Of a stretch of 64,000 nucleotides of DNA, positions 1-22,686 are shown piece after piece; the first letter of the stretch is position 1; each line of letters opens with the position of its first letter. The stretch lies in sequence record NC_052654.1; one strand, given 5' to 3'. Position numbers and translations under genes: made by a program. The notes below the pieces were generated by a model. It did no database searches. It was given only the letters and a program-made list of their open reading frames with translations, and was not told the origin of the DNA. Origin of the DNA: Escherichia phage vB_EcoM-Ro121c4YLVW.

Positions 1-253
1 CAAAGTAAGGTGTTACCAATTCTAAACGCTTATTCTTAGGGTTGTATTGGTAAATATCCTCTCCCGAATATTCACTAATCTGTTTCCAACCATCTTTTGT
101 AAGATATTCCGTTTCAGCAGAAACACATCCAGCGGCACCACCATAAATCATAACTTCTGGCATTAAATCCATTGCAAGAGTCTGTTTACCTGGTTGAGCC
201 TTTACTTCAATATCTACTCCAGCTAAACTACCTGCTGCCTTTTTCTTTGCCAC
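1..253 (-). CDS. 5' part of a gene continuing beyond the window start; N-terminus has a glycine-rich GGAAG followed by C-V-S-A-E-T (Hint/intein-like block A resemblance)
   Basis: Open minus-strand frame from GTG (253-251) to window edge, SD GGAGGG 3-4 nt upstream; translation (M)AKKKAAGSLAGVDIEVKAQPGKQTLAMDLMPEVMIYGGAAGCVSAETEYLTKDGWKQISEY... Confidence 0.35.
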   Translation of the reverse strand, partial: MAKKKAAGSLAGVDIEVKAQPGKQTLAMDLMPEVMIYGGAAGCVSAETEYLTKDGWKQISEYSGEDIYQYNPKNKRLELVTPYF

Positions 254-262
254 ATTCCCTCC

Positions 263-607
263 TTATTCAGCAATAATACCTTTTTCTTGCAGTGTTTTAA
301 TATATGTTTGTAAACCTAAAACCTTTCGTCTATCTTGCTCCCAAAGAGCGTTGTTTTGAGTTTGGTTGTTAACAACTTCAGATCTACTAACCCCTTTTGC
401 AATTTGATTTTTAGTGTATGGCACAGGTGTCGATACTTTATCCATCAAATCCGAATCTGGACCTTTAACCTTTTCTATGGCTACAGCCTTACACTCATCA
501 ATAAGAACTGGGGAAACTTTTGTTGATGATGAACAACCCGTCATCATTAGGGGCAAAGCAAGACATACTGCCAGAATTAGTTTTTGCATAATTCGTTGTA
601 TCCTCAT
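263..607 (-). CDS. outer-membrane lipoprotein, candidate o-spanin (signal peptide with lipobox-like LMMTGC)
   Basis: ORF track; N-terminal hydrophobic signal ending in Cys; overlaps the 3' end of the upstream TM/coiled-coil gene as in spanin pairs; true start may be the internal Met at 589. Confidence 0.45.
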   Translation of the reverse strand: MRIQRIMQKLILAVCLALPLMMTGCSSSTKVSPVLIDECKAVAIEKVKGPDSDLMDKVSTPVPYTKNQIAKGVSRSEVVNNQTQNNALWEQDRRKVLGLQTYIKTLQEKGIIAE

Positions 608-890
608 TGATCGTTTGTTTCTTCTTCTCTAAATCTGCTTTTAATTGTGCATTGTTTTTAGACAAGTTGTTTATTTGGGTATTTAATAATGCTCTTTCTT
701 CATCTGCTCTTTTTTGAAGAACATCAAAATCCTGTTTTGCTTTTGCTTGGGCTGCTTGATATAATTGCGCTTGATAGGCAACACCATCTTTGTAGCCAGA
801 CTCATGTATCTTGTTATAAGCAAACATTCCGGCAAGAATAAGAACAACAATTAAAACAAAACCTAATACAGTTTTAGTCTTTAGATTCAT
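498..890 (-). CDS. N-terminal transmembrane + coiled-coil protein, candidate i-spanin
   Basis: ORF track; TM helix (VLGFVLIVVLILAGMF) followed by Q/A/K-rich coiled coil; overlaps the lipoprotein gene. Confidence 0.45.
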   Translation of the reverse strand: MNLKTKTVLGFVLIVVLILAGMFAYNKIHESGYKDGVAYQAQLYQAAQAKAKQDFDVLQKRADEERALLNTQINNLSKNNAQLKADLEKKKQTINEDTTNYAKTNSGSMSCFAPNDDGLFIINKSFPSSY

Positions 891-1089
891 TATCTTCTAC
901 TTCCTCATAAAATTTTATTTTAGGAAGAGAAGGGGCGTTGTTAACTATCTTCTTCACTTCCATCGGTTGAGCCTCCACTAGGATCTCTTCCCACGTCTTC
1001 TCTGTCATCATAAAGTTCTTCCTCCAAGTTCCAAGCCCGTGTGTAATCATTCTTTTTATCTTTATGATAAGAAGAACGGTTAAAATCAT
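874..1089 (-). CDS. hypothetical protein
   Basis: ORF track; co-oriented with neighbours. Confidence 0.3.
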   Translation of the reverse strand: MILTVLLIIKIKRMITHGLGTWRKNFMMTEKTWEEILVEAQPMEVKKIVNNAPSLPKIKFYEEVEDNESKD

Positions 1090-1169
1090 TTTTAACTACA
1101 AAATTGCGCATATTTTATCCTCCTCATATCTGATCTTATCACAAAAGTATATACAATTGCAAGCATTAA

Positions 1170-1203
1170 AAATAAAAAGCCCCTAACCTTTCGGAGAGGG
1201 GTG
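1170..1203 (-). terminator. intrinsic terminator (GC hairpin CCCCT..AGGGG followed by T-tract on minus strand)
   Basis: Hairpin and CTTTTTATTTTT read on minus strand immediately downstream of the 1253..1549 gene stop. Confidence 0.45.
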
Positions 1204-1252
1204 TTAAAAATAACAAGGAGGAGGGGGGCAAAGCCCCAAGAGAGGAGAGGGA

Positions 1253-1549
1253 TTAGATTACGATCTTTTTAGGAACGTCATCTGTATTCTGCACGGCAGG
1301 AGTTTCTTCTTCCATAGCTTCATAATGTTCTTCTAACCATTCTTCTACTTGCTCTTTAATAGCTTTAGCTGCTTGGAAGCGGAGAGGTTTTGCTGCATCC
1401 TTATCATTAACAAGTTCAACAATATATCGCATAGCTTCTAAATAATGCTCTGCAAATAATTCTTTTACACTTGCTTGCGCCGCATCCATTGCGTAGATCT
1501 GTTGCATTTCGGCTGTTGGTCTTCCACGACCACGTTTTAGTTTAGGCAT
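1253..1549 (-). CDS. small DNA-binding protein with AT-hook-like motif (KRGRGRP)
   Basis: ORF track; N-terminal PKLKRGRGRPTA matches the AT-hook RGRP core; rest acidic helical. Confidence 0.45.
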   Translation of the reverse strand: MPKLKRGRGRPTAEMQQIYAMDAAQASVKELFAEHYLEAMRYIVELVNDKDAAKPLRFQAAKAIKEQVEEWLEEHYEAMEEETPAVQNTDDVPKKIVI

Positions 1550-1616
1550 AATAAAATCCTCCTAAACTTTATCTTAACATATAAAAAATAATAAGTCAAG
1601 TTTTATTCAATAGATA

Positions 1617-1641
1617 GCAAAAAGCCTCCAATAAGGAGGCT
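1617..1641 (-). terminator. intrinsic terminator closing the tRNA operon (AGCCTCC-aataa-GGAGGCT hairpin + TTTTT on minus strand)
   Basis: Perfect 7-bp inverted repeat followed, on the minus strand, by a T-run; lies downstream of the last tRNA. Confidence 0.55.
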
Positions 1642-1756
1642 AGTAAATACTGTTAAGTTGAAATGCTTTATTATAATTGTGCGTTAATGAGTCGCACCCC
1701 TCCATCTTAGAAGGAACCAGGCAAGGTCTTCAAAGATACCGCTGGCAAGCGATATT

Positions 1757-1835
1757 TGGAGGCGGGAATCGGATTTGAACCGATGATCTCCAGCATATGA
1801 AACTGGCGAGGACGACCAGACTCCTCTATCCCGCT
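1757..1835 (-). tRNA. tRNA with anticodon CAU (Met or Ile2/lysidine)
   Basis: Hand fold: T-arm ATCGG-TTCAAAT-CCGAT, anticodon stem CCAGT/GCTGG, loop TTCATAT, CCA encoded; A1-C72 mismatch at acceptor end. Confidence 0.6.
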
Positions 1836-1841
1836 ATTATG

Positions 1842-1911
1842 TATCCCGTGCTGGATTCGAACCAGCATCACAATAAGCTGTGGAACTCTTATCCTGTAAG
1901 TCTAACGGGAA
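1842..1911 (-). tRNA. tRNA-like gene with non-canonical anticodon arm (4-bp stem CACA/TGTG with 6-nt loop); possible pseudo-tRNA
   Basis: Canonical T-arm GCTGG-TTCGAAT-CCAGC and 6-bp acceptor pairing, but no 5-bp stem / 7-nt loop anticodon arm can be drawn; about 70 nt. Confidence 0.35.
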
Positions 1912-1913
1912 AC

Positions 1914-1987
1914 TGGTTGTTTCGACAAGAATCGAACTTGTGTCTCACGATTATCAGTCGTGGGTTCTACCATTGAACTACGAAACA
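1914..1987 (-). tRNA. tRNA-Ile (anticodon GAU)
   Basis: Hand fold: acceptor TGTTTCG/CGAAACA, D-arm GTTC..GAAC, anticodon stem CACGA/TCGTG, loop CTGATAA, T-loop TTCGATT, CCA encoded. Confidence 0.7.
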
Positions 1988-1993
1988 TTTAAT

Positions 1994-2070
1994 TGGTCGG
2001 GACGGAGTGATTCGAACACTCGACCTCTCGCTCCCAAAGCGAGCGCACTACCAAGCTGTGCTACGTCCCG
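1994..2070 (-). tRNA. tRNA-Pro (anticodon UGG)
   Basis: Hand fold: acceptor CGGGACG/CGTCCCG, anticodon stem CTCGC/GCGAG, loop TTTGGGA, T-arm GAGTG-TTCGAAT-CACTC, CCA encoded. Confidence 0.7.
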
Positions 2071-2163
2071 TGATAACATTCTAAAGGTACACCGCAAAAG
2101 AAAGTGTTCGGCGGCTCCTCGTTTTTAACTTCACACTTAAGGTAGTGACTCACCTTTGTTATA

Positions 2164-2239
2164 TGGCTGGTCTGTCTGGATTTGAACCAAACCTACGACA
2201 GTCAAAGTGTCGTGTGCTACCGGACTACACTACAAACCA
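2164..2239 (-). tRNA. tRNA-Gln (anticodon UUG)
   Basis: Hand fold: acceptor TGGTTTG/CAGACCA, anticodon stem CGACA/TGTCG, loop CTTTGAC, T-loop TTCAAAT, CCA encoded, 76 nt. Confidence 0.65.
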
Positions 2240-2337
2240 ATAAATCATTTAATGAAGGGCAACCAGAAGAAGTGTGAGAGAAGGAGAAAACCATGAGTAA
2301 AAGAGAAAGTTTTCTGGCAACCCTTTATTAAATAATT

Positions 2338-2411
2338 TGGAGCGTTCTACGAGGATCGAACTCGTGCCGCCGACTTGGAAGGACGGAATGCTACCGCTAC
2401 ACCAAGAACGC
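2338..2411 (-). tRNA. tRNA-Gly (anticodon UCC)
   Basis: Hand fold: acceptor GCGTTCT/AGAACGC, T-arm ACGAG-TTCGATC-CTCGT, anticodon loop CTTCCAA (one T-T in stem), CCA encoded. Confidence 0.6.
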
Positions 2412-2422
2412 CATATATATTT

Positions 2423-2452
2423 ACTATACTACATTTTACTATTTGTTGTCAA
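2423..2452 (-). promoter_or_regulatory. sigma70-like promoter inside the tRNA cluster (TTGACA-N18-TATAGT on minus strand)
   Basis: Consensus -35 with near-consensus -10 read on minus strand, directly upstream of tRNA-Gly. Confidence 0.5.
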
Positions 2453-2725
2453 GACTTTTATTGATTGGGACAGTGACGAGTATCCCGTTGGGTGACTAGC
2501 CCTACGTTCGGTAAGCTAACTTAAAATAATACAAAACCAAAGTCAAATATTATTCTTCGTTGCTGTCGATGGGAGAGCCGCTTCTCATTTTGCCCCATCC
2601 AACCCTACTCCGGTCAAGTTTCGGGTGACTCTTTTTGTGATCAACACAATACTAAGAACACTGTCTTTCGAGCAGACCTTGTGCACAGGATACGACGATC
2701 AATCACAGTGCTCTTAATGTTGTGT
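2453..2725 (-). ncRNA. non-tRNA spacer inside tRNA operon; candidate stable small RNA(s)
   Basis: About 270 bp between tRNA-Thr and the internal promoter with no ORF and no T-loop motif; T4 carries non-tRNA stable RNAs in its tRNA region. Confidence 0.25.
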
Positions 2726-2800
2726 TGGTGCTCCCACACTGAATCGAACAGAGATCCACGGATTACAAAACCGTTGTAATAGCCATTATACTATAGGAGC
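2726..2800 (-). tRNA. tRNA-Thr (anticodon UGU)
   Basis: Hand fold: acceptor GCTCCTA/TGGGAGC (one G-U), anticodon stem ACGGT/TCCGT, loop TTTGTAA, T-loop TTCGATT, CCA encoded. Confidence 0.6.
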
Positions 2801-2806
2801 AATGCT

Positions 2807-2884
2807 GGGACTCGGCAGGATTCGATACCTGCAATTCCAGAAGCCTATTGGCGACTGGGGGGTTTACCTTAACTCTACAAGTCC
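2807..2884 (-). tRNA. tRNA-like gene with aberrant D/anticodon region (anticodon not assignable)
   Basis: Good acceptor pairing GGACTTG/CGAGTCC and T-arm GCAGG..CCTGC (8-nt loop TATCGAAT), but the central region (CCCCCC run) does not give a canonical anticodon arm; no CCA encoded. Confidence 0.3.
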
Positions 2885-2891
2885 ATAATTC

Positions 2892-2977
2892 TGGCGATGA
2901 GTATAGGATTCGAACCTATATTGTTCTTTCGAACACGGATTAACAGTCCGCCGCTTAAACCATTCAGCCAACTCATC
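2892..2977 (-). tRNA. type II (long variable arm) tRNA with anticodon GUU (Asn-decoding anticodon on a Tyr-like body)
   Basis: Hand fold: acceptor GATGAGT/ACTCATC, anticodon stem GCGGA/TCCGT, loop CTGTTAA, variable-arm hairpin GTTC-GAAA-GAAC, T-arm ATAGG-TTCGAAT-CCTAT, CCA encoded. Confidence 0.5.
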
Positions 2978-2983
2978 TTAATT

Positions 2984-3071
2984 TGGTGGTGAGTGATGGA
3001 GTCGAACCACCCGAATCGCAATGATAACAGATTTACAGTCTGCCCCGCTACCCCTACGGAATTAACTCACC
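2984..3071 (-). tRNA. tRNA-Tyr (anticodon GUA), type II
   Basis: Hand fold: acceptor GGTGAGT/ACTCACC, anticodon stem GCAGA/TCTGT, loop CTGTAAA, long variable arm, T-loop TTCGACT, CCA encoded. Confidence 0.6.
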
Positions 3072-3201
3072 TAAATACTAATATTTAAATTCTTTTTAAA
3101 ATAGCCAGTGTTCACACCACTAACTATGAGGTATCGGTAAAGTGGTTACCGCCACTTGCCGAAGATTTACTCTGCTAAAGTAAGCTACATTAAAAAGAAC
3201 T

Positions 3202-3287
3202 TGGCGGTAGATGTAGGACTCGAACCTACACGCCGTTTCCGACTACAGTTTAGCAAACTGTCGTGGCTACCATTTCACCAATCTACC
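3202..3287 (-). tRNA. tRNA-Ser (anticodon GCU), type II
   Basis: Hand fold: acceptor GGTAGAT/ATCTACC, anticodon stem ACAGT/ACTGT, loop TTGCTAA, long variable arm, T-arm TGTAGG-TTCGAGT-CCTACA, CCA encoded. Confidence 0.65.
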
Positions 3288-3292
3288 TAATC

Positions 3293-3383
3293 TGGCGGAA
3301 GGAGGGAGAGTCGAACTCCCAAGGCTCTTTCAAGCTCGGCGGTTTTCAAGACCGTTTTCGTCGCCACATCGATTTGCCCTTCC
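3293..3383 (-). tRNA. tRNA-Ser (anticodon UGA), type II
   Basis: Hand fold: acceptor GGAAGGG/TCCTTCC, anticodon stem CGGT/ACCG, loop CTTGAAA, long variable arm, T-arm GGGAG-TTCGACT-CTCCC, CCA encoded. Confidence 0.6.
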
Positions 3384-3617
3384 ATACTTATAATCTAACA
3401 TAAAATAATGTTTGTTGTCAATAGTTTTTTAAAACATTTTACCATGAATGGTGACTCCACCAACCCCCGTTCTCCACGAACGGTGCTCTTCGAGCATTTA
3501 TGTCTTCTAATATAACCGTGGCCTTTGTTTATAATGTCTGACATACTTGCCTCATTCTCTGCCACCATGATCAGTAGTGGGTTCAAATCACTTGAGCTAA
3601 TTCATGTTAAAATGTTC

Positions 3618-3692
3618 TGGTGTCTTTACAAGGAATCGAACCTTGACTAAGAGTTTAGAAGACTCCTGTGCTATCCATTACACCATAAAGAC
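3618..3692 (-). tRNA. tRNA-Arg (anticodon UCU)
   Basis: Hand fold: acceptor GTCTTTA/TAAAGAC, anticodon stem GGAGT/ACTCT, loop CTTCTAA, T-arm CAAGG-TTCGATT-CCTTG, CCA encoded. Confidence 0.7.
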
Positions 3693-3694
3693 TT

Positions 3695-3769
3695 TGGTGG
3701 CCCTGGCTGGTTTCGATCCAGCTACCTATCGGTTATGAGCCGACAGCTCTCCCATTGAGCTACAGGGCC
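3695..3769 (-). tRNA. tRNA with anticodon CAU (Met elongator or Ile2)
   Basis: Hand fold: acceptor GGCCCTG/CAGGGCC, D-arm GCTC-AATGGGAGA-GC, anticodon loop CTCATAA, T-arm GCTGG-ATCGAAA-CCAGC, CCA encoded. Confidence 0.65.
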
Positions 3770-4015
3770 ATAAATGTGGTAACAGAGACGCTGACGATTG
3801 TAGAGAACCGCTACATTCTCTAAGACCAAGCCCAACTTTCAGCGTAAAAGTTCTTGAGCCGAGACTATTCCTTTTCCTCTTTGGTAGCTAACCTCTGAAG
3901 AAGTAGTCTCTAACACTACCGCAGTGCAAGCCCCTCTTAACAAAAGTCAACGACCCTGTTACCACACTTGATGAACGTATCCTAACATATGAAGGATACG
4001 TTTGTCAATAGTTAT

Positions 4016-20445: not shown

Positions 20446-22686
20446 TTGATTCGTTTTGTAACTAAATCTAACGGTAAGACAGAGGAGTTTAATCCAGAAA
20501 AACTTCGTAAGTGGTCTGAATTTGCAGCAGGTAAACTAAACTGGTCTGAAATTGAATTAGAAGCTGTGAAGCGGTGTTATGACGGTGTGTCTACACGTGA
20601 TCTGCATAAAGCAATGATTGCAGCGTGTATTGACAAGAAAACACAAGCTTACAGTGATATGGCAGGAAGACTTCTTCTGGGTATGATTTACAAACAGGCT
20701 CATGGGGGATACCACAGTATCCCTTCACTGAATACCTTTTATCATGATATGGTAGAACGTGGACATTGGGCTAAAATGGATTATACCGATGAAGAGATCA
20801 AAGAAATCGGTAAGATTGTAAAGCATAATAAAAATCTAACTTATGGTTATTCTGTTTTACGTCAGATGGTAGATAAATATCTTATTCGAGATGCAGTAAA
20901 CGATGTGGTGCATGAGTCTCCACAGTTTCTTTTCATTGGTATCGCAATGAAGGTTATGGAGATCCAACCAAAAGAACGCCGTATAGAAGATATTAAAAAA
21001 CTTTATACTTATGTTAGCGATCTTAAGATTAATCTGCCATCGCCGTATCTGACAACTCTACGAACTCCAATCAAAGGAAGTGCGTCTTGTTGTTTATTCC
21101 GTGCAGACGATACGGCAGAGTCTTTAGCCATTGCTAATTACTTAGCTCATGAGTATACGTTGAATAACGCAGGTATTGGTGTTAATCTTCAAACTCGTGC
21201 CACAGGTCAAGGTGTTAAGAATAATCGTATTATTCATGGTGGTCTTCTTCCGTATCTGAAATGGATGGAAGATAGTGTTGGAGCTTCAAAGCAAGCAAGT
21301 CGTGGAGGTAGTGCTACAGTTACCTTTACCATACTTGAACCAGACTTCGACGATCTGATTCGACTGAAGAATCCAACAACACCTATAGATAAACGAGTAG
21401 ACAAACTGGATTATTCTATTGTTGTTAACCGTTCGTTCTTGCGTCGAGCAGCTAAAAACGAAGACTGGATGTTAGTTAGTTGTGATGATGCTCCTGAACT
21501 TTATGAAGCTTTGTATAAAAGTGAAGAAGAGTTTGATGCAGTTTATGACAAAGTAAGCCGACGTCGCATTAAGAAAAAATTCGTCAAGGCTCGTGATCTT
21601 CTTACAGAGATTATTGTTCAACGTGCAGAAACAGGACGTATTTACATGTTCTTTGCTGACAACGTTAACAACCATACACCTTTCTTGGATACGGTGTATC
21701 AATCAAACCTGTGTCAAGAGATCTTCTTACCAACTAAAGCTTTCCACAGTATGCCGGATCTCTTTACTGGTGAAAATACAGAAGATCAAGAATTGGCTTT
21801 ATGTTTCTTATCTTCTATTGTTGCTGGTCGTGTATTACCTGAAGAATATGAGGATGTTGCATACTACACTGTATTGACAATTGACAACGTTATTGAAACA
21901 ATGGATTATCCATTTAAACATAACGAAATAACTGCTAAAGCACGTAGATCTATTGGTGTAGGCATTACAAACTTAGCACATTACTTGGCAAGTAATTTTG
22001 TAAATTATTCAGATGATTATGCTAAAAAATTAATGCATGAACTTGCAGAACGTCATTACTTTTGGTTGGCAAAAGCCTCTTTGCGTCTGGCTAAGGAAAA
22101 AGGTAATGCAGAATGGATCGATAAGACCAAATGGCCTCAAGGTTGGCTACCAATTGACACCTATGCTAAAGCAGTAGATAGTGTCGGTAACTTTGATCTT
22201 AAAATGGACTGGGAAGGTTTACGTGCTGAAATCATTGAACAAGGTGGTATCCGTAATAGTGTCTTGGCTGCTATTGCACCTAATGAGTCCAGCAGTTTGG
22301 TAAGCAATACTACTAACTCTCTGTACCCTGTTCGTGATACTATTATGTATAAACAAAGTCAGAAAGGTAGTGTATTATTTATTGTTCCAGACTACGAAAA
22401 ACTGAAAATGTTCTACCAATCCGCCTGGGATACTCCGGCTAAAGATCTTGCAGAAATGTATGGTATCTTTACCAAGTTTACGGACCAAGGAATTTCTTGT
22501 GATTCTTGGCTAGATTATTCTAAATTGGTAGGTGGACGTTTATCAGTGAAAGCCGAGATGCAGTTTATTCTGAATTTTGCTAGATTGGGTGGCAAGTCAT
22601 TGTATTACCTTAATAGTAGAACAAAATCAGCAGATTCTTTAGCACAAGAAGATTCTGATGGTGGTTGTGAAGCTTGCAAGATGTGA
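20446..22686 (+). CDS. nrdA: ribonucleoside-diphosphate reductase large subunit (class Ia NrdA)
   Basis: N-terminal ATP-cone, active-site NLCQEI, size 746 aa; TTG start after GGGAGGAG. Confidence 0.9.
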   Translation: MIRFVTKSNGKTEEFNPEKLRKWSEFAAGKLNWSEIELEAVKRCYDGVSTRDLHKAMIAACIDKKTQAYSDMAGRLLLGMIYKQAHGGYHSIPSLNTFYHDMVERGHWAKMDYTDEEIKEIGKIVKHNKNLTYGYSVLRQMVDKYLIRDAVNDVVHESPQFLFIGIAMKVMEIQPKERRIEDIKKLYTYVSDLKINLPSPYLTTLRTPIKGSASCCLFRADDTAESLAIANYLAHEYTLNNAGIGVNLQTRATGQGVKNNRIIHGGLLPYLKWMEDSVGASKQASRGGSATVTFTILEPDFDDLIRLKNPTTPIDKRVDKLDYSIVVNRSFLRRAAKNEDWMLVSCDDAPELYEALYKSEEEFDAVYDKVSRRRIKKKFVKARDLLTEIIVQRAETGRIYMFFADNVNNHTPFLDTVYQSNLCQEIFLPTKAFHSMPDLFTGENTEDQELALCFLSSIVAGRVLPEEYEDVAYYTVLTIDNVIETMDYPFKHNEITAKARRSIGVGITNLAHYLASNFVNYSDDYAKKLMHELAERHYFWLAKASLRLAKEKGNAEWIDKTKWPQGWLPIDTYAKAVDSVGNFDLKMDWEGLRAEIIEQGGIRNSVLAAIAPNESSSLVSNTTNSLYPVRDTIMYKQSQKGSVLFIVPDYEKLKMFYQSAWDTPAKDLAEMYGIFTKFTDQGISCDSWLDYSKLVGGRLSVKAEMQFILNFARLGGKSLYYLNSRTKSADSLAQEDSDGGCEACKM

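What the first reader, a model, noticed from the sequence alone, without database searches (positions are those of the whole stretch)
1..253. Edge gene with a possible intein-like N-terminal junction (GGAAG followed by C-V-S-A-E-T)
The partial minus-strand ORF at the window start reads ...PEVMIYGGAAG-CVSAETEYLTKDGWKQISEY.... A glycine-rich, P-loop-like stretch followed immediately by Cys-(V/L)-S-x-E-T resembles the N-terminal splice junction (block A) of a Hint/intein inserted into an ATPase motif, as seen in some phage terminases and RNR genes. Only about 85 residues are visible, so this is speculative.
Basis: inference. Interest (0 to 1): 0.35.

Follow-up and report, generated by a model that had tools for sequence, protein, structure and literature searches.

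The report
Mini-intein splitting terminase ATP-binding loop
The gene at the window's edge is the DNA-packaging terminase of a phAPEC8-like coliphage, and its ATP-binding loop really is interrupted by a small self-splicing protein element (a mini-intein) that no database record annotates; this kind of element is well known in phage terminases.

Summary
Window 253..1 (minus strand) encodes the first 84 residues of the large terminase (TerL) of a Phapecoctavirus. It is identical in DNA to Escherichia phage ESCO13.

In the complete ESCO13 gene (691 aa) a 159-aa insert sits exactly inside the Walker A motif: GGAAG | C1…T-G-N159 | SGKS. Related terminases of about 510 aa read straight through as IYGGAAGSGKSRLLLLKAL.

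- **Family conservation:** Cys1, a block B SxxH, a block F Cys, the terminal Asn and Ser+1 are all invariant in the insert family.
- **Structure:** the AlphaFold model (pLDDT 91) matches only Hedgehog/intein (HINT)-fold structures. The best match is the AceL NrdHF intein (6ZGQ).
- **Longer versions:** alleles of about 325 aa at the same site fold as intein plus LAGLIDADG homing endonuclease.
- **Selection and spread:** the insert is under purifying selection as strong as the terminase itself and is fixed in Stephanstirmvirinae (132 records).
- **Annotation gap:** no listed record annotates it as an intein, and the Pfam and NCBIfam searches returned no family for the insert.

Two predictions were off. 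The intein ends in Gly-Asn rather than His-Asn, and block B is SxxH rather than TxxH.

One twist remains open. The signature resembles class 3 inteins (Cys at F:4, Thr at G:5, no C-terminal His), yet Cys1 is retained. Splicing itself is inferred, not shown.

This is a new member of a known kind, of modest interest.

The parts
251..253 (-). GTG start codon of the terminase large subunit (TerL) precursor gene. An AAGGAGG ribosome-binding site lies at 264-258.
   Evidence: Read directly from the sequence. RefSeq ESCO13 annotates the same start, L001:6348.
128..253 (-). N-extein: TerL residues 1-42. It ends in the first half of the Walker A motif (…IYGGAAG).
   Evidence: Translation. It aligns to the N-termini of insert-free TerL homologs up to GGAAG.
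125..127 (-). [quoted passage not shown]
   Evidence: Read from the sequence. Cys1 is invariant in 20 of 20 family members and present in 180 of 181 copies in the wider family.
1..127 (-). N-terminal 42 residues of the 159-aa mini-intein: block A (CVSAETEYLTKDGW) and the next beta strands. Blocks B, F and G and the C-extein lie beyond the window's left edge.
   Evidence: Family profile hit with E = 2.9e-14, starting at profile position 1. The continuation was read from the identical ESCO13 gene, L001:6474-6950.

Best explanation
The edge ORF is the 5' end of the large terminase (TerL, Terminase_6 type) gene of a Phapecoctavirus.

What is there: the gene encodes a 78.6-kDa precursor. A 159-aa (18.6-kDa) mini-intein with no homing endonuclease is inserted between Gly42 and Ser202, inside the Walker A motif (GGAAG|SGKS).

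What it most likely does after translation (inferred): the intein folds as a HINT domain, excises itself and joins the two halves. This yields a 532-aa (60.1-kDa) terminase with an intact P-loop, GGAAGSGKS. Without splicing the packaging ATPase cannot be made, so every productive infection would depend on it.

Proposed chemistry (inferred):
1. Cys1, activated by the block B residues Ser66 and His69, converts the Gly42-Cys1 peptide bond into a thioester.
2. The N-extein is passed to Ser+1. This may go directly or by way of the invariant block F Cys138, which occupies the F:4 position.
3. The terminal Asn159 cyclises and releases the intein. It does this without the usual penultimate His; Arg70 or the conserved Arg-Arg at 148-149 probably compensate.
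4. The ester rearranges to a peptide bond.

Origin (inferred): the element descends from a full-length intein carrying a LAGLIDADG endonuclease, which still occupies the same site in other phage terminases. It lost the endonuclease and is now fixed and vertically inherited in Stephanstirmvirinae.
For: What is shown:
- **Identity of the locus:** window 1-300 is identical to ESCO13. ESCO13 TerL is 691 aa.
- **Host domain starts after the insert:** Pfam Terminase_6N begins only at residue 202, E = 5e-17.
- **Precise insertion:** about 510-aa homologs read IYGGAAGSGKSRL…, while 35 of the 120 listed homologs carry an insert C…[TS]GN|SGKS at the same point, with sizes of 146-159, 246 and 301-328 aa.
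- **Syntenic empty site:** a site with no insert (TerL followed by portal) is present in metagenomic phage contigs of 133 and 141 kb.
- **Invariant residues:** C1, T6, E7, G13, W14, H69, K136, Y137, C138, G158, N159 and S+1 are invariant in the family.
- **Similarity to solved inteins:** the profile against PDB sequences gives the AceL NrdHF intein 6ZGQ at E = 2e-12; most of the weaker hits are also inteins or intein-like HINT domains.
- **Fold:** the AF2 model has pLDDT 91.4. The top 50 Foldseek PDB hits are all inteins, Hedgehog or bacterial intein-like domains; the best is 6ZGQ, TM 0.67-0.70.
- **Long allele:** the long allele at the same site models at pLDDT 94 and matches the intein-endonucleases PI-SceI, PI-PfuI and Tli/Pho VMA. 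Its middle domain matches I-DmoI.
- **Selection:** ESCO13 against PaulScherrer gives 88% aa identity and dN 0.085 for the intein, against 87% and dN 0.118 for the extein. dN/dS is about 0.055 for both.
- **Spread:** intein DNA is present in 132 phage records, out of about 134 records with a TerL at least 60% identical.

From the literature: the closest solved relative has the same S-x-x-H-R, Cys F:4 and T-G-N|S features and splices efficiently in E. coli at 37 C without either C-terminal His (PMC7891396).
Against: - No experiment shows splicing of this protein.
- Blocks B, F and G were read from a 99.9% identical relative, not from the window itself.
- The Pfam and NCBIfam searches returned no family for the insert.
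[quoted passage not shown] Taken alone, that could suggest a crippled C-terminal reaction.
- Which Cys makes the first attack cannot be decided from sequence.
Confidence: 0.92

Rival explanations
1. It is an intein, but it splices by the class 3 route. Block F Cys138 attacks the N-terminal junction first and forms a block F branched thioester. Cys1 is then not the primary nucleophile; it might, for example, act as a redox latch by forming a disulfide with Cys138.
For: - The best sequence and structure relative is a proven class 3 intein (PMC7891396).
- It shares Cys at F:4, Thr at G:5, Gly at G:6, Ser+1, Arg at B:11, a non-Trp hydrophobic residue at B:12 and Pro four residues after the Cys.
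- Cys F:4 is present in 177 of 181 family copies.
- The founding class 3 paper lists three inteins that carry the Trp-Cys-Thr (WCT) triplet together with Ser1 or Cys1 (PMC2807308).
Against: - Cys1 is present in 180 of 181 diverged family copies. In proven class 3 inteins position 1 is not required and is a non-nucleophile (PMC5222942).
- The Trp of the WCT triplet is absent.
- Grafting WCT onto a class 1 intein did not give class 3 splicing (PMC7664689).
Confidence: 0.25
2. It is a degenerate HINT-like insertion that is not spliced out. It stays in the mature terminase as an extra domain.
For: - It has no penultimate His and no F:13 His.
- The homing endonuclease is lost.
- It is fixed in the lineage.
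- It has no hit to curated intein models.
Against: - The insert separates GGAAG from SGKS, so the P-loop could not form.
- Every residue needed for splicing (C1, H69, N159, S+1) is invariant, and the insert is under strong purifying selection.
- AceL NrdHF has the same missing His residues and splices to completion.
Confidence: 0.04
3. The Cys-Val-Ser-Ala-Glu-Thr stretch is ordinary terminase sequence that merely looks like an intein block A.
For: Only 42 residues of the insert are visible in the window. Short motifs of this type can arise by chance.
Against: - The family profile gives E = 2.9e-14 on the window fragment alone.
- Homologs lack the segment precisely.
- The insert has a HINT fold.
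Confidence: 0.01

Closest known systems
AceL NrdHF class 3 split intein (PDB 6ZGQ; Hoffmann et al. 2020, PMC7891396)
   Same: It is the best hit both by profile (E = 2e-12) and by fold (E = 1.5e-7, TM 0.67-0.70). The two share block B S-x-x-H-R plus a non-Trp hydrophobic residue, Cys at F:4 followed by Pro at +4, a C-terminal Thr-Gly-Asn | Ser, and the absence of both C-terminal histidines. Both appear to be of phage origin, and both are about 146-159 aa.
   Different: AceL NrdHF starts with Ala1, is naturally split, and sits in a ribonucleotide reductase. The intein here starts with an invariant Cys1, is contiguous, and sits in a terminase P-loop. The two are only about 20% identical.
Mycobacteriophage TerL P-loop inteins TerL1-a and TerL1-b (Kelley et al. 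2016, PMC5050341), and the phiCbK TerL intein (PMC3556154)
   Same: These are inteins inserted in the Walker A motif of a phage large terminase. Splicing is required to build the ATPase site. For the mycobacteriophage examples, splicing and endonuclease activity have been shown experimentally.
   Different: They occur in a different terminase family (Terminase_1) and at a different position in the P-loop, at or one residue from the GK|[ST] bond. Here the bond is G|SGKS, three residues upstream. In that study the Terminase_6-like terminases carry their intein in the C-motif instead. Several of those tested carry endonucleases. The phiCbK TerL intein starts with Pro1 and ends in His-Asn.
Full-length LAGLIDADG inteins at the same TerL site in metagenomic phages (for example P0026, P0028, P0030), and the 146-aa allele of Vibrio phage PWH3a-P1 (P0034)
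   Same: They share the same insertion point (GG[AS]AG|SGKS), the same invariant residues and the same TGN|S end. These are alleles of the same intein.
   Different: The long forms keep a two-motif LAGLIDADG endonuclease. They are only 26-33% identical to the Phapecoctavirus copy.
Canonical class 1 mini-inteins (Ssp DnaB, Npu DnaE, gp41-1)
   Same: They share the HINT fold, Cys1, the block B His, the terminal Asn and Ser/Cys +1.
   Different: They have Asp at F:4, His at F:13 and a penultimate His. Here these positions are Cys, a non-His residue and Gly.

Membership tests
Intein (HINT-fold protein-splicing element) | An in-frame insertion, with precise boundaries, in a conserved host motif, and absent from orthologs. 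| tested here: met
   GGAAG|159 aa|SGKS compared with the contiguous GGAAGSGKS in about 510-aa TerLs. A syntenic site with no insert was also found.
Intein (HINT-fold protein-splicing element) | A nucleophile (Cys, Ser or Thr) as the first intein residue, or a class 2/3 substitute. | tested here: met
   Cys at window 127-125. It is invariant in the family.
Intein (HINT-fold protein-splicing element) | Block B [TS]xxH. | tested here: met
   S66-M-E-H69 in the identical ESCO13 gene, outside the window. The His is present in 181 of 181 copies.
Intein (HINT-fold protein-splicing element) | A C-terminal Asn followed by Cys, Ser or Thr at +1. | tested here: met
   …F-V-T-G-N159 | S-G-K-S. The Asn is present in 181 of 181 copies.
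Intein (HINT-fold protein-splicing element) | A penultimate His (G:6). This is typical but not obligatory. | tested here: not met
   Gly158, and Gly in 177 of 181 family copies. Functional inteins without this His are documented (PMC7891396; PMC4031507 reference 74).
Intein (HINT-fold protein-splicing element) | A Hedgehog/intein fold. | tested here: met
   AF2 model with pLDDT 91.4. The top 50 Foldseek PDB hits are all inteins, Hedgehog or bacterial intein-like domains.
Intein (HINT-fold protein-splicing element) | A match to curated intein or Hint models in Pfam or NCBIfam. | tested here: not met
   No family was reported for the insert at E <= 10 in either library. Relatives also give no significant Hint or intein-splicing domain hit; the only such match is a sub-threshold Hom_end_hint hit in P0122, outside the mapped insert copies.
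Intein (HINT-fold protein-splicing element) | Demonstrated excision of the intein and ligation of the exteins. | not testable with these tools
   This needs expression followed by SDS-PAGE and MS. No paper was found that links inteins to phAPEC8- or phi92-like phages.
Class 3 inteins | No N-terminal Cys, Ser or Thr nucleophile. | tested here: not met
   Cys1 is present in 180 of 181 copies.
Class 3 inteins | Cys at block F position 4. | tested here: met
   K-Y-C138-F-E-T-P lines up with the canonical V-Y-D-L-x-V-P, read by eye. Cys is present in 177 of 181 copies. The spacing to the terminal Asn (21 residues) matches AceL NrdHF C124 to N146 (22 residues).
Class 3 inteins | Trp at B:12 and Thr at G:5, the rest of the Trp-Cys-Thr (WCT) triplet. 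| tested here: inconclusive
   G:5 is Thr157 (Thr or Ser in 164 of 181 copies). B:12 is Phe71 (V/M/I/L/F across the family), not Trp. AceL NrdHF is class 3 with Met at B:12.
Class 3 inteins | A block F branched thioester intermediate; F:4 Cys obligatory and position 1 dispensable. | not testable with these tools
   This requires C1A and C138A mutants and thiol-lability assays.
Mini-intein (no homing endonuclease) | A splicing domain only, with no endonuclease domain between blocks B and F. | tested here: met
   The insert is 159 aa. The model is a single HINT domain. Long alleles carry about 170 extra residues that fold as a LAGLIDADG domain.
Terminase large subunit, Terminase_6 (T4-like) type | An N-terminal ATPase with Walker A, matching the Pfam model. 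The gene lies next to the portal gene. | tested here: met
   PF03237, E = 5e-17, residues 202-460. The portal gene lies directly downstream in ESCO13. Walker A (GGAAGSGKS) is restored only after removing the insert.

The most novel reading that the evidence does not exclude
This intein may belong to a very large, under-described clade. The clade's signature is Cys1 plus Cys at F:4, Thr or Ser at G:5 and Gly at G:6, with no C-terminal His. About 3,650 representative proteins match at E <= 1e-10, and the Pfam searches run here did not recognise its splicing domain.

The clade would be mechanistically intermediate between class 1 and class 3. One possibility is a two-thiol relay: Cys1 to Cys F:4 to Ser+1. 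Another is a class 3 attack with Cys1 forming a disulfide with Cys F:4 as a redox latch. Under the latch reading, terminase maturation, and therefore DNA packaging in phi92- and phAPEC8-like phages, would be conditional on the redox state of the infected cell.
Probability: 0.15. Interest if true: 0.6.

Novelty: new member of a known kind. Interest (0 to 1): 0.33.

Why it matters
**Annotation.** phAPEC8-, ESCO13- and phi92-like phages are widely isolated and used as biocontrol or therapy candidates. Their terminase is routinely used as a phylogenetic and packaging-type marker. In the GenBank and RefSeq records listed, it is annotated as a plain 691-aa "terminase large subunit" or as hypothetical. 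The mature enzyme is probably a 532-aa protein. Alignments, trees and structure models that include the 159-aa insert are therefore distorted.

**Detection.** A whole family of inteins escaped the Pfam and NCBIfam searches run here. Genome annotation pipelines that rely on such models may therefore miss them.

**Protein engineering.** This is a compact, endonuclease-free cis-splicing intein that works in E. coli phages at 37 C with Ser+1, and it is related to a fast class 3 intein. That makes it a candidate tool.

**Mechanism.** Cys1 and Cys F:4 are both conserved here, which offers a natural test case for how class 3 splicing arose from class 1.

Tried and rejected
- **Curated domain models.** I scanned the 84-aa window fragment against Pfam, and the isolated insert and full-length TerL against Pfam and NCBIfam. 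No intein or Hint hit appeared, even at E <= 10. This is a sensitivity gap, not evidence against an intein.
- **C-terminal profile.** A profile of only the C-terminal 50 residues (blocks F and G) against PDB sequences gave no intein hit. The crystallised 6ZGQ carries C124A and N146A. Block F and G assignment therefore rests on pattern, spacing and fold.
- **Endonuclease profile.** A profile of the endonuclease part of the long alleles against PDB sequences gave nothing. Pfam LAGLIDADG_3 was only sub-threshold, E about 0.01. This was resolved by structure prediction and Foldseek.
- **Papers not held.** I tried to read Tori & Perler 2011 and Brace 2010 on class 3 inteins with Ser1 or Cys1. Neither is in the library.
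- **Prior reports.** I searched for an intein reported in phAPEC8, Phapecoctavirus, ESCO13 or Stephanstirmvirinae. None was found. The BASEL paper mentions inteins only generically, and its phage PaulScherrer annotates a plain terminase.
- **Second intein in the window.** The family profile finds no other copy in the 64 kb.
- **Active-site distances.** I could not measure distances such as Cys138 S-gamma to the scissile carbonyl, because model coordinates are not exposed.
- **Intron reading.** I considered a group I intron or free-standing endonuclease insertion. I rejected it for this site because the ORF is continuous and in frame and the insert is a folded HINT domain.

Full report
**1. The observation**

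The minus strand of window 253..1 translates to VAKKKAAGSLAGVDIEVKAQPGKQTLAMDLMPEVMIYGGAAGCVSAETEYLTKDGWKQISEYSGEDIYQYNPKNKRLELVTPYF.

- The ORF starts at GTG 253-251, behind an AAGGAGG ribosome-binding site at 264-258.
- It lies immediately downstream of an overlapping spanin gene pair (263-890), which in turn follows a 10-tRNA array.
- The Gly-Cys junction is at 128|127.

**2. Where the window comes from**

Window 1-1600 is 99.9% identical to Escherichia phage ESCO13 (genus Phapecoctavirus, subfamily Stephanstirmvirinae). It is 98-99% identical to phAPEC8 and many relatives. Window 1-300 is base-for-base identical to ESCO13.

In ESCO13 the ORF is annotated "terminase large subunit", 691 aa, and is followed by the portal gene. 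I used this gene (L001:6348-8423) to see the part that the window cuts off.

**3. The full protein**

The ESCO13 protein reads …MPEVMIYGGAAG | CVSAETEY … SMEHRF … KKYCFETPSSYIVFRRGDHCFVTGN | SGKSRLLLLKALKY….

- Removing residues 43-201 (159 aa, 18.6 kDa) leaves a 532-aa, 60.1-kDa protein with a perfect Walker A motif, GGAAGSGKS.
- Pfam Terminase_6N matches only from residue 202 onward, E = 5e-17.

**4. Homologs show a precise insertion**

I searched the full protein against 5.8 billion proteins.

- Among the 120 best hits, the TerLs of about 510 aa read IYGGAAGSGKSRLLLLKAL without interruption.
- Thirty-five of the 120 carry an insert at exactly this point. All start with Cys and all end in [TS]-G-N followed by SGKS. 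Insert sizes are 146-159 aa, 246 aa and 301-328 aa.
- One insert-free relative (P0020, 64% identical to the extein) sits in phage contigs of 133 and 141 kb with the same TerL-then-portal order. Its site reads …ATCTATGGTGGTGCAGCAGGA|TCTGGTAAGTCA….

The C-V-S-A-E-T segment does not align as ordinary protein sequence in homologs.

**5. The insert is a HINT domain**

*Conservation.* In an alignment of 20 inserts, the invariant residues are C1, T6, E7, G13, W14, H69, K136, Y137, C138, G158, N159 and S+1. These include the residues an intein needs.

*Sequence similarity to solved inteins.* A profile of this alignment finds the AceL NrdHF intein (PDB 6ZGQ) at E = 2e-12. Most of the weaker hits are also inteins or intein-like HINT domains, including the PolII, RecA, DnaX, TFIIB, gp41-1 and DnaB inteins and bacterial intein-like domains.

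*Fold.* AlphaFold2 models the insert with mean pLDDT 91.4 as an all-beta domain with one helix. The top 50 Foldseek matches in the PDB are all inteins, Hedgehog autoprocessing domains or bacterial intein-like domains. The best is 6ZGQ, with E = 1.5e-7 and TM 0.67-0.70.

*The window fragment alone.* I built a profile from 181 family copies in other proteins. It hits the window's edge ORF at E = 2.9e-14, starting on the Cys, and hits nothing else in the 64 kb.

**6. The longer alleles carry a homing endonuclease**

The alleles of about 325 aa at the same TerL site contain two LAGLIDADG-like motifs: LRLQVAVMADG and I.DEV.HWDG.

Sequence methods were weak here. Pfam LAGLIDADG_3 gave E of about 0.01, and a profile against PDB sequences found nothing.

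Structure resolved it. The AlphaFold model (pLDDT 94) matches intein-endonucleases: the Tli and Pho VMA inteins, PI-SceI and PI-PfuI, with E from 1e-13 to 1e-10. Its middle domain matches I-DmoI.

The Phapecoctavirus copy is therefore a mini-intein that has lost the endonuclease. This is the expected late stage of the homing cycle (established knowledge).

**7. Population and selection**

- **Distribution:** the intein DNA is found in 132 phage records (Phapecoctavirus, Justusliebigvirus/phi92 and relatives).
- **Fixation:** about 134 records have a TerL at least 60% identical. The intein is therefore essentially fixed in the subfamily.
- **Selection:** between ESCO13 and the phi92-like phage PaulScherrer, the intein is 88% identical (dN 0.085) and the extein 87% identical (dN 0.118). 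dN/dS is about 0.055 in both. dS is saturated, so the ratio is rough.
- **Reading (inference):** the intein co-diverged with its host gene under constraint as strong as that on an essential enzyme. This is what one expects if failure to splice is lethal.
- **Base composition:** GC content is slightly lower in the intein (0.344) than in the extein (0.39).

**8. The wider family**

I searched the profile against 1.84 billion representative proteins. It finds 12,676 proteins at E <= 1e-3, 3,650 at E <= 1e-10 and 207 at E <= 1e-30.

- **Hosts:** the nine top hits scanned include T7-type primase-helicases, ribonucleotide reductase, RtcB and SpoVR, besides the terminases; two of the nine returned no Pfam family. 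Some proteins carry several copies.
- **Insertion context:** 79 of 181 copies sit in the context x|[SCT]GK[ST], that is, in a P-loop.
- **Signature across the 181 copies:** Cys1 in 180; the block B His in 181; Tyr-Cys at F:3-F:4 with Cys in 177; Thr or Ser at G:5 in 164; Gly at G:6 in 177; the terminal Asn in 181; an Arg-Arg pair before block G.
- **Detection gap:** Pfam gave no significant Hint or intein-splicing domain hit for these proteins either.

**9. Which splicing class?**

The literature defines class 3 inteins by three things: no N-terminal nucleophile, a Trp(B:12)-Cys(F:4)-Thr(G:5) triplet, and first attack by the F:4 Cys (PMC2807308, PMC5222942, PMC4031507).

AceL NrdHF is a proven class 3 intein with an atypical Met-Cys-Thr triplet. 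It has Ser at B:7, Arg at B:11, Gly at G:6 and Ser+1, and lacks both the F:13 and G:6 histidines. In that intein G145H kills activity and Arg69 helps Asn cyclisation (PMC7891396).

The intein here has nearly the same set:

| Position | AceL NrdHF | This intein |
|---|---|---|
| B:7 | Ser65 | Ser66 |
| B:10 | His68 | His69 |
| B:11 | Arg69 | Arg70 |
| B:12 | Met70 | Phe71 |
| F:4 | Cys124 | Cys138 |
| Pro after F:4 Cys | Pro128 | Pro142 |
| G:5 to G:7, +1 | Thr-Gly-Asn \| Ser | Thr157-Gly158-Asn159 \| Ser |
| Position 1 | Ala | Cys (near-invariant) |

Position 1 is free to vary in true class 3 inteins. Its conservation here argues that Cys1 is used.

My best reading is as follows, and it is inference: initiation is class 1 type at Cys1, with an essential F:4 Cys acting as relay or assistant. 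A class 3 first step has about 0.25 probability. Sequence alone cannot decide.

**10. Comparison with what is known**

- Inteins in phage terminase P-loops are well documented. Examples are the mycobacteriophage TerL1-a and TerL1-b inteins at or next to the GK|T bond, where splicing and endonuclease activity were shown (PMC5050341), and phiCbK TerL at K|S (PMC3556154). Actinophage surveys count 293 TerL inteins (bioRxiv 10.1101/2025.01.02.630785). A split terminase intein has been found in metagenomes (PMC2677866).
- What differs here: the host family is Terminase_6. The bond is G|SGKS, three residues upstream of the classic site. The signature is Cys1 plus Cys F:4 plus a Gly-Asn end. The phage group is Stephanstirmvirinae.
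- For that phage group I found no paper. None of the 60 of 132 records listed for the intein DNA mentions an intein.

**11. Verdict**

It is a new, unannotated member of a known kind. Its interest is modest: it matters mainly for annotation and as a possible mechanistic intermediate between intein classes. Splicing itself, and the order in which the nucleophiles act, remain to be shown experimentally.

Noticed in passing
window 263-890 (minus strand); L001:5994-6338: There is an overlapping spanin pair just upstream of TerL: an i-spanin ORF at 498-890 and an o-spanin ORF at 263-607. The o-spanin ORF has a lipoprotein signal ending in the lipobox L-M-M-T-G-C. RefSeq ESCO13 annotates the o-spanin as only 71 aa, starting at an ATA codon (L001:6123). 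That start cuts off the signal peptide and lipobox, so the start is probably mis-called.
   Followed up: partly
window 1757-3769 (minus strand): There is an array of 10 tRNA genes (Met, Ile, Pro, Gln, Gly, Thr, Asn, Ser, Arg, Met), matching the tRNA cluster annotated in ESCO13.
   Followed up: no
L003 (Escherichia phage nepoznato MN850571.1), locus 547-3591: In this close relative the TerL gene carries a second mobile element downstream of the intein. The gene is split into two ORFs (locus 547-1788 and 2833-3591) by an insertion of about 1 kb encoding an HNH homing endonuclease (an intron or a free-standing endonuclease gene). The 412-aa truncated TerL cluster P0017 looks like the same arrangement. 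This part of the gene lies outside the window, so I cannot tell whether the window's genome has it.
   Followed up: partly
outside the window: Klebsiella phage ZCKP1 DNA polymerase (UniProt A0A2Z4QDY3, 1110 aa): The intein model also matches the predicted structure of the DNA polymerase of a Phapecoctavirus in BFVD (E = 9e-6). This suggests a second intein in these genomes. The window has no ORF of 500 aa or more other than 20446-22686, and the family profile finds no other copy of the TerL intein family in the window. The polymerase gene therefore appears to lie outside the window.
   Followed up: partly
window, about 1-4000, 4000-40000 and 40000-64000: GC skew is negative in the first 4 kb, positive from about 4 to 40 kb, and negative again after about 40 kb. 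This is consistent with blocks of genes on opposite strands.
   Followed up: no
metagenomic proteins P0121 (2602 aa), P0144 (2583 aa) and P0184 (2223 aa): Some representative proteins match the intein-family profile in five or six separate stretches within one polypeptide. Two or three full-length copies per protein could be mapped. In some cases copies are separated by only a few extein residues, for example …GNS-GYQ-CHD….
   Followed up: no
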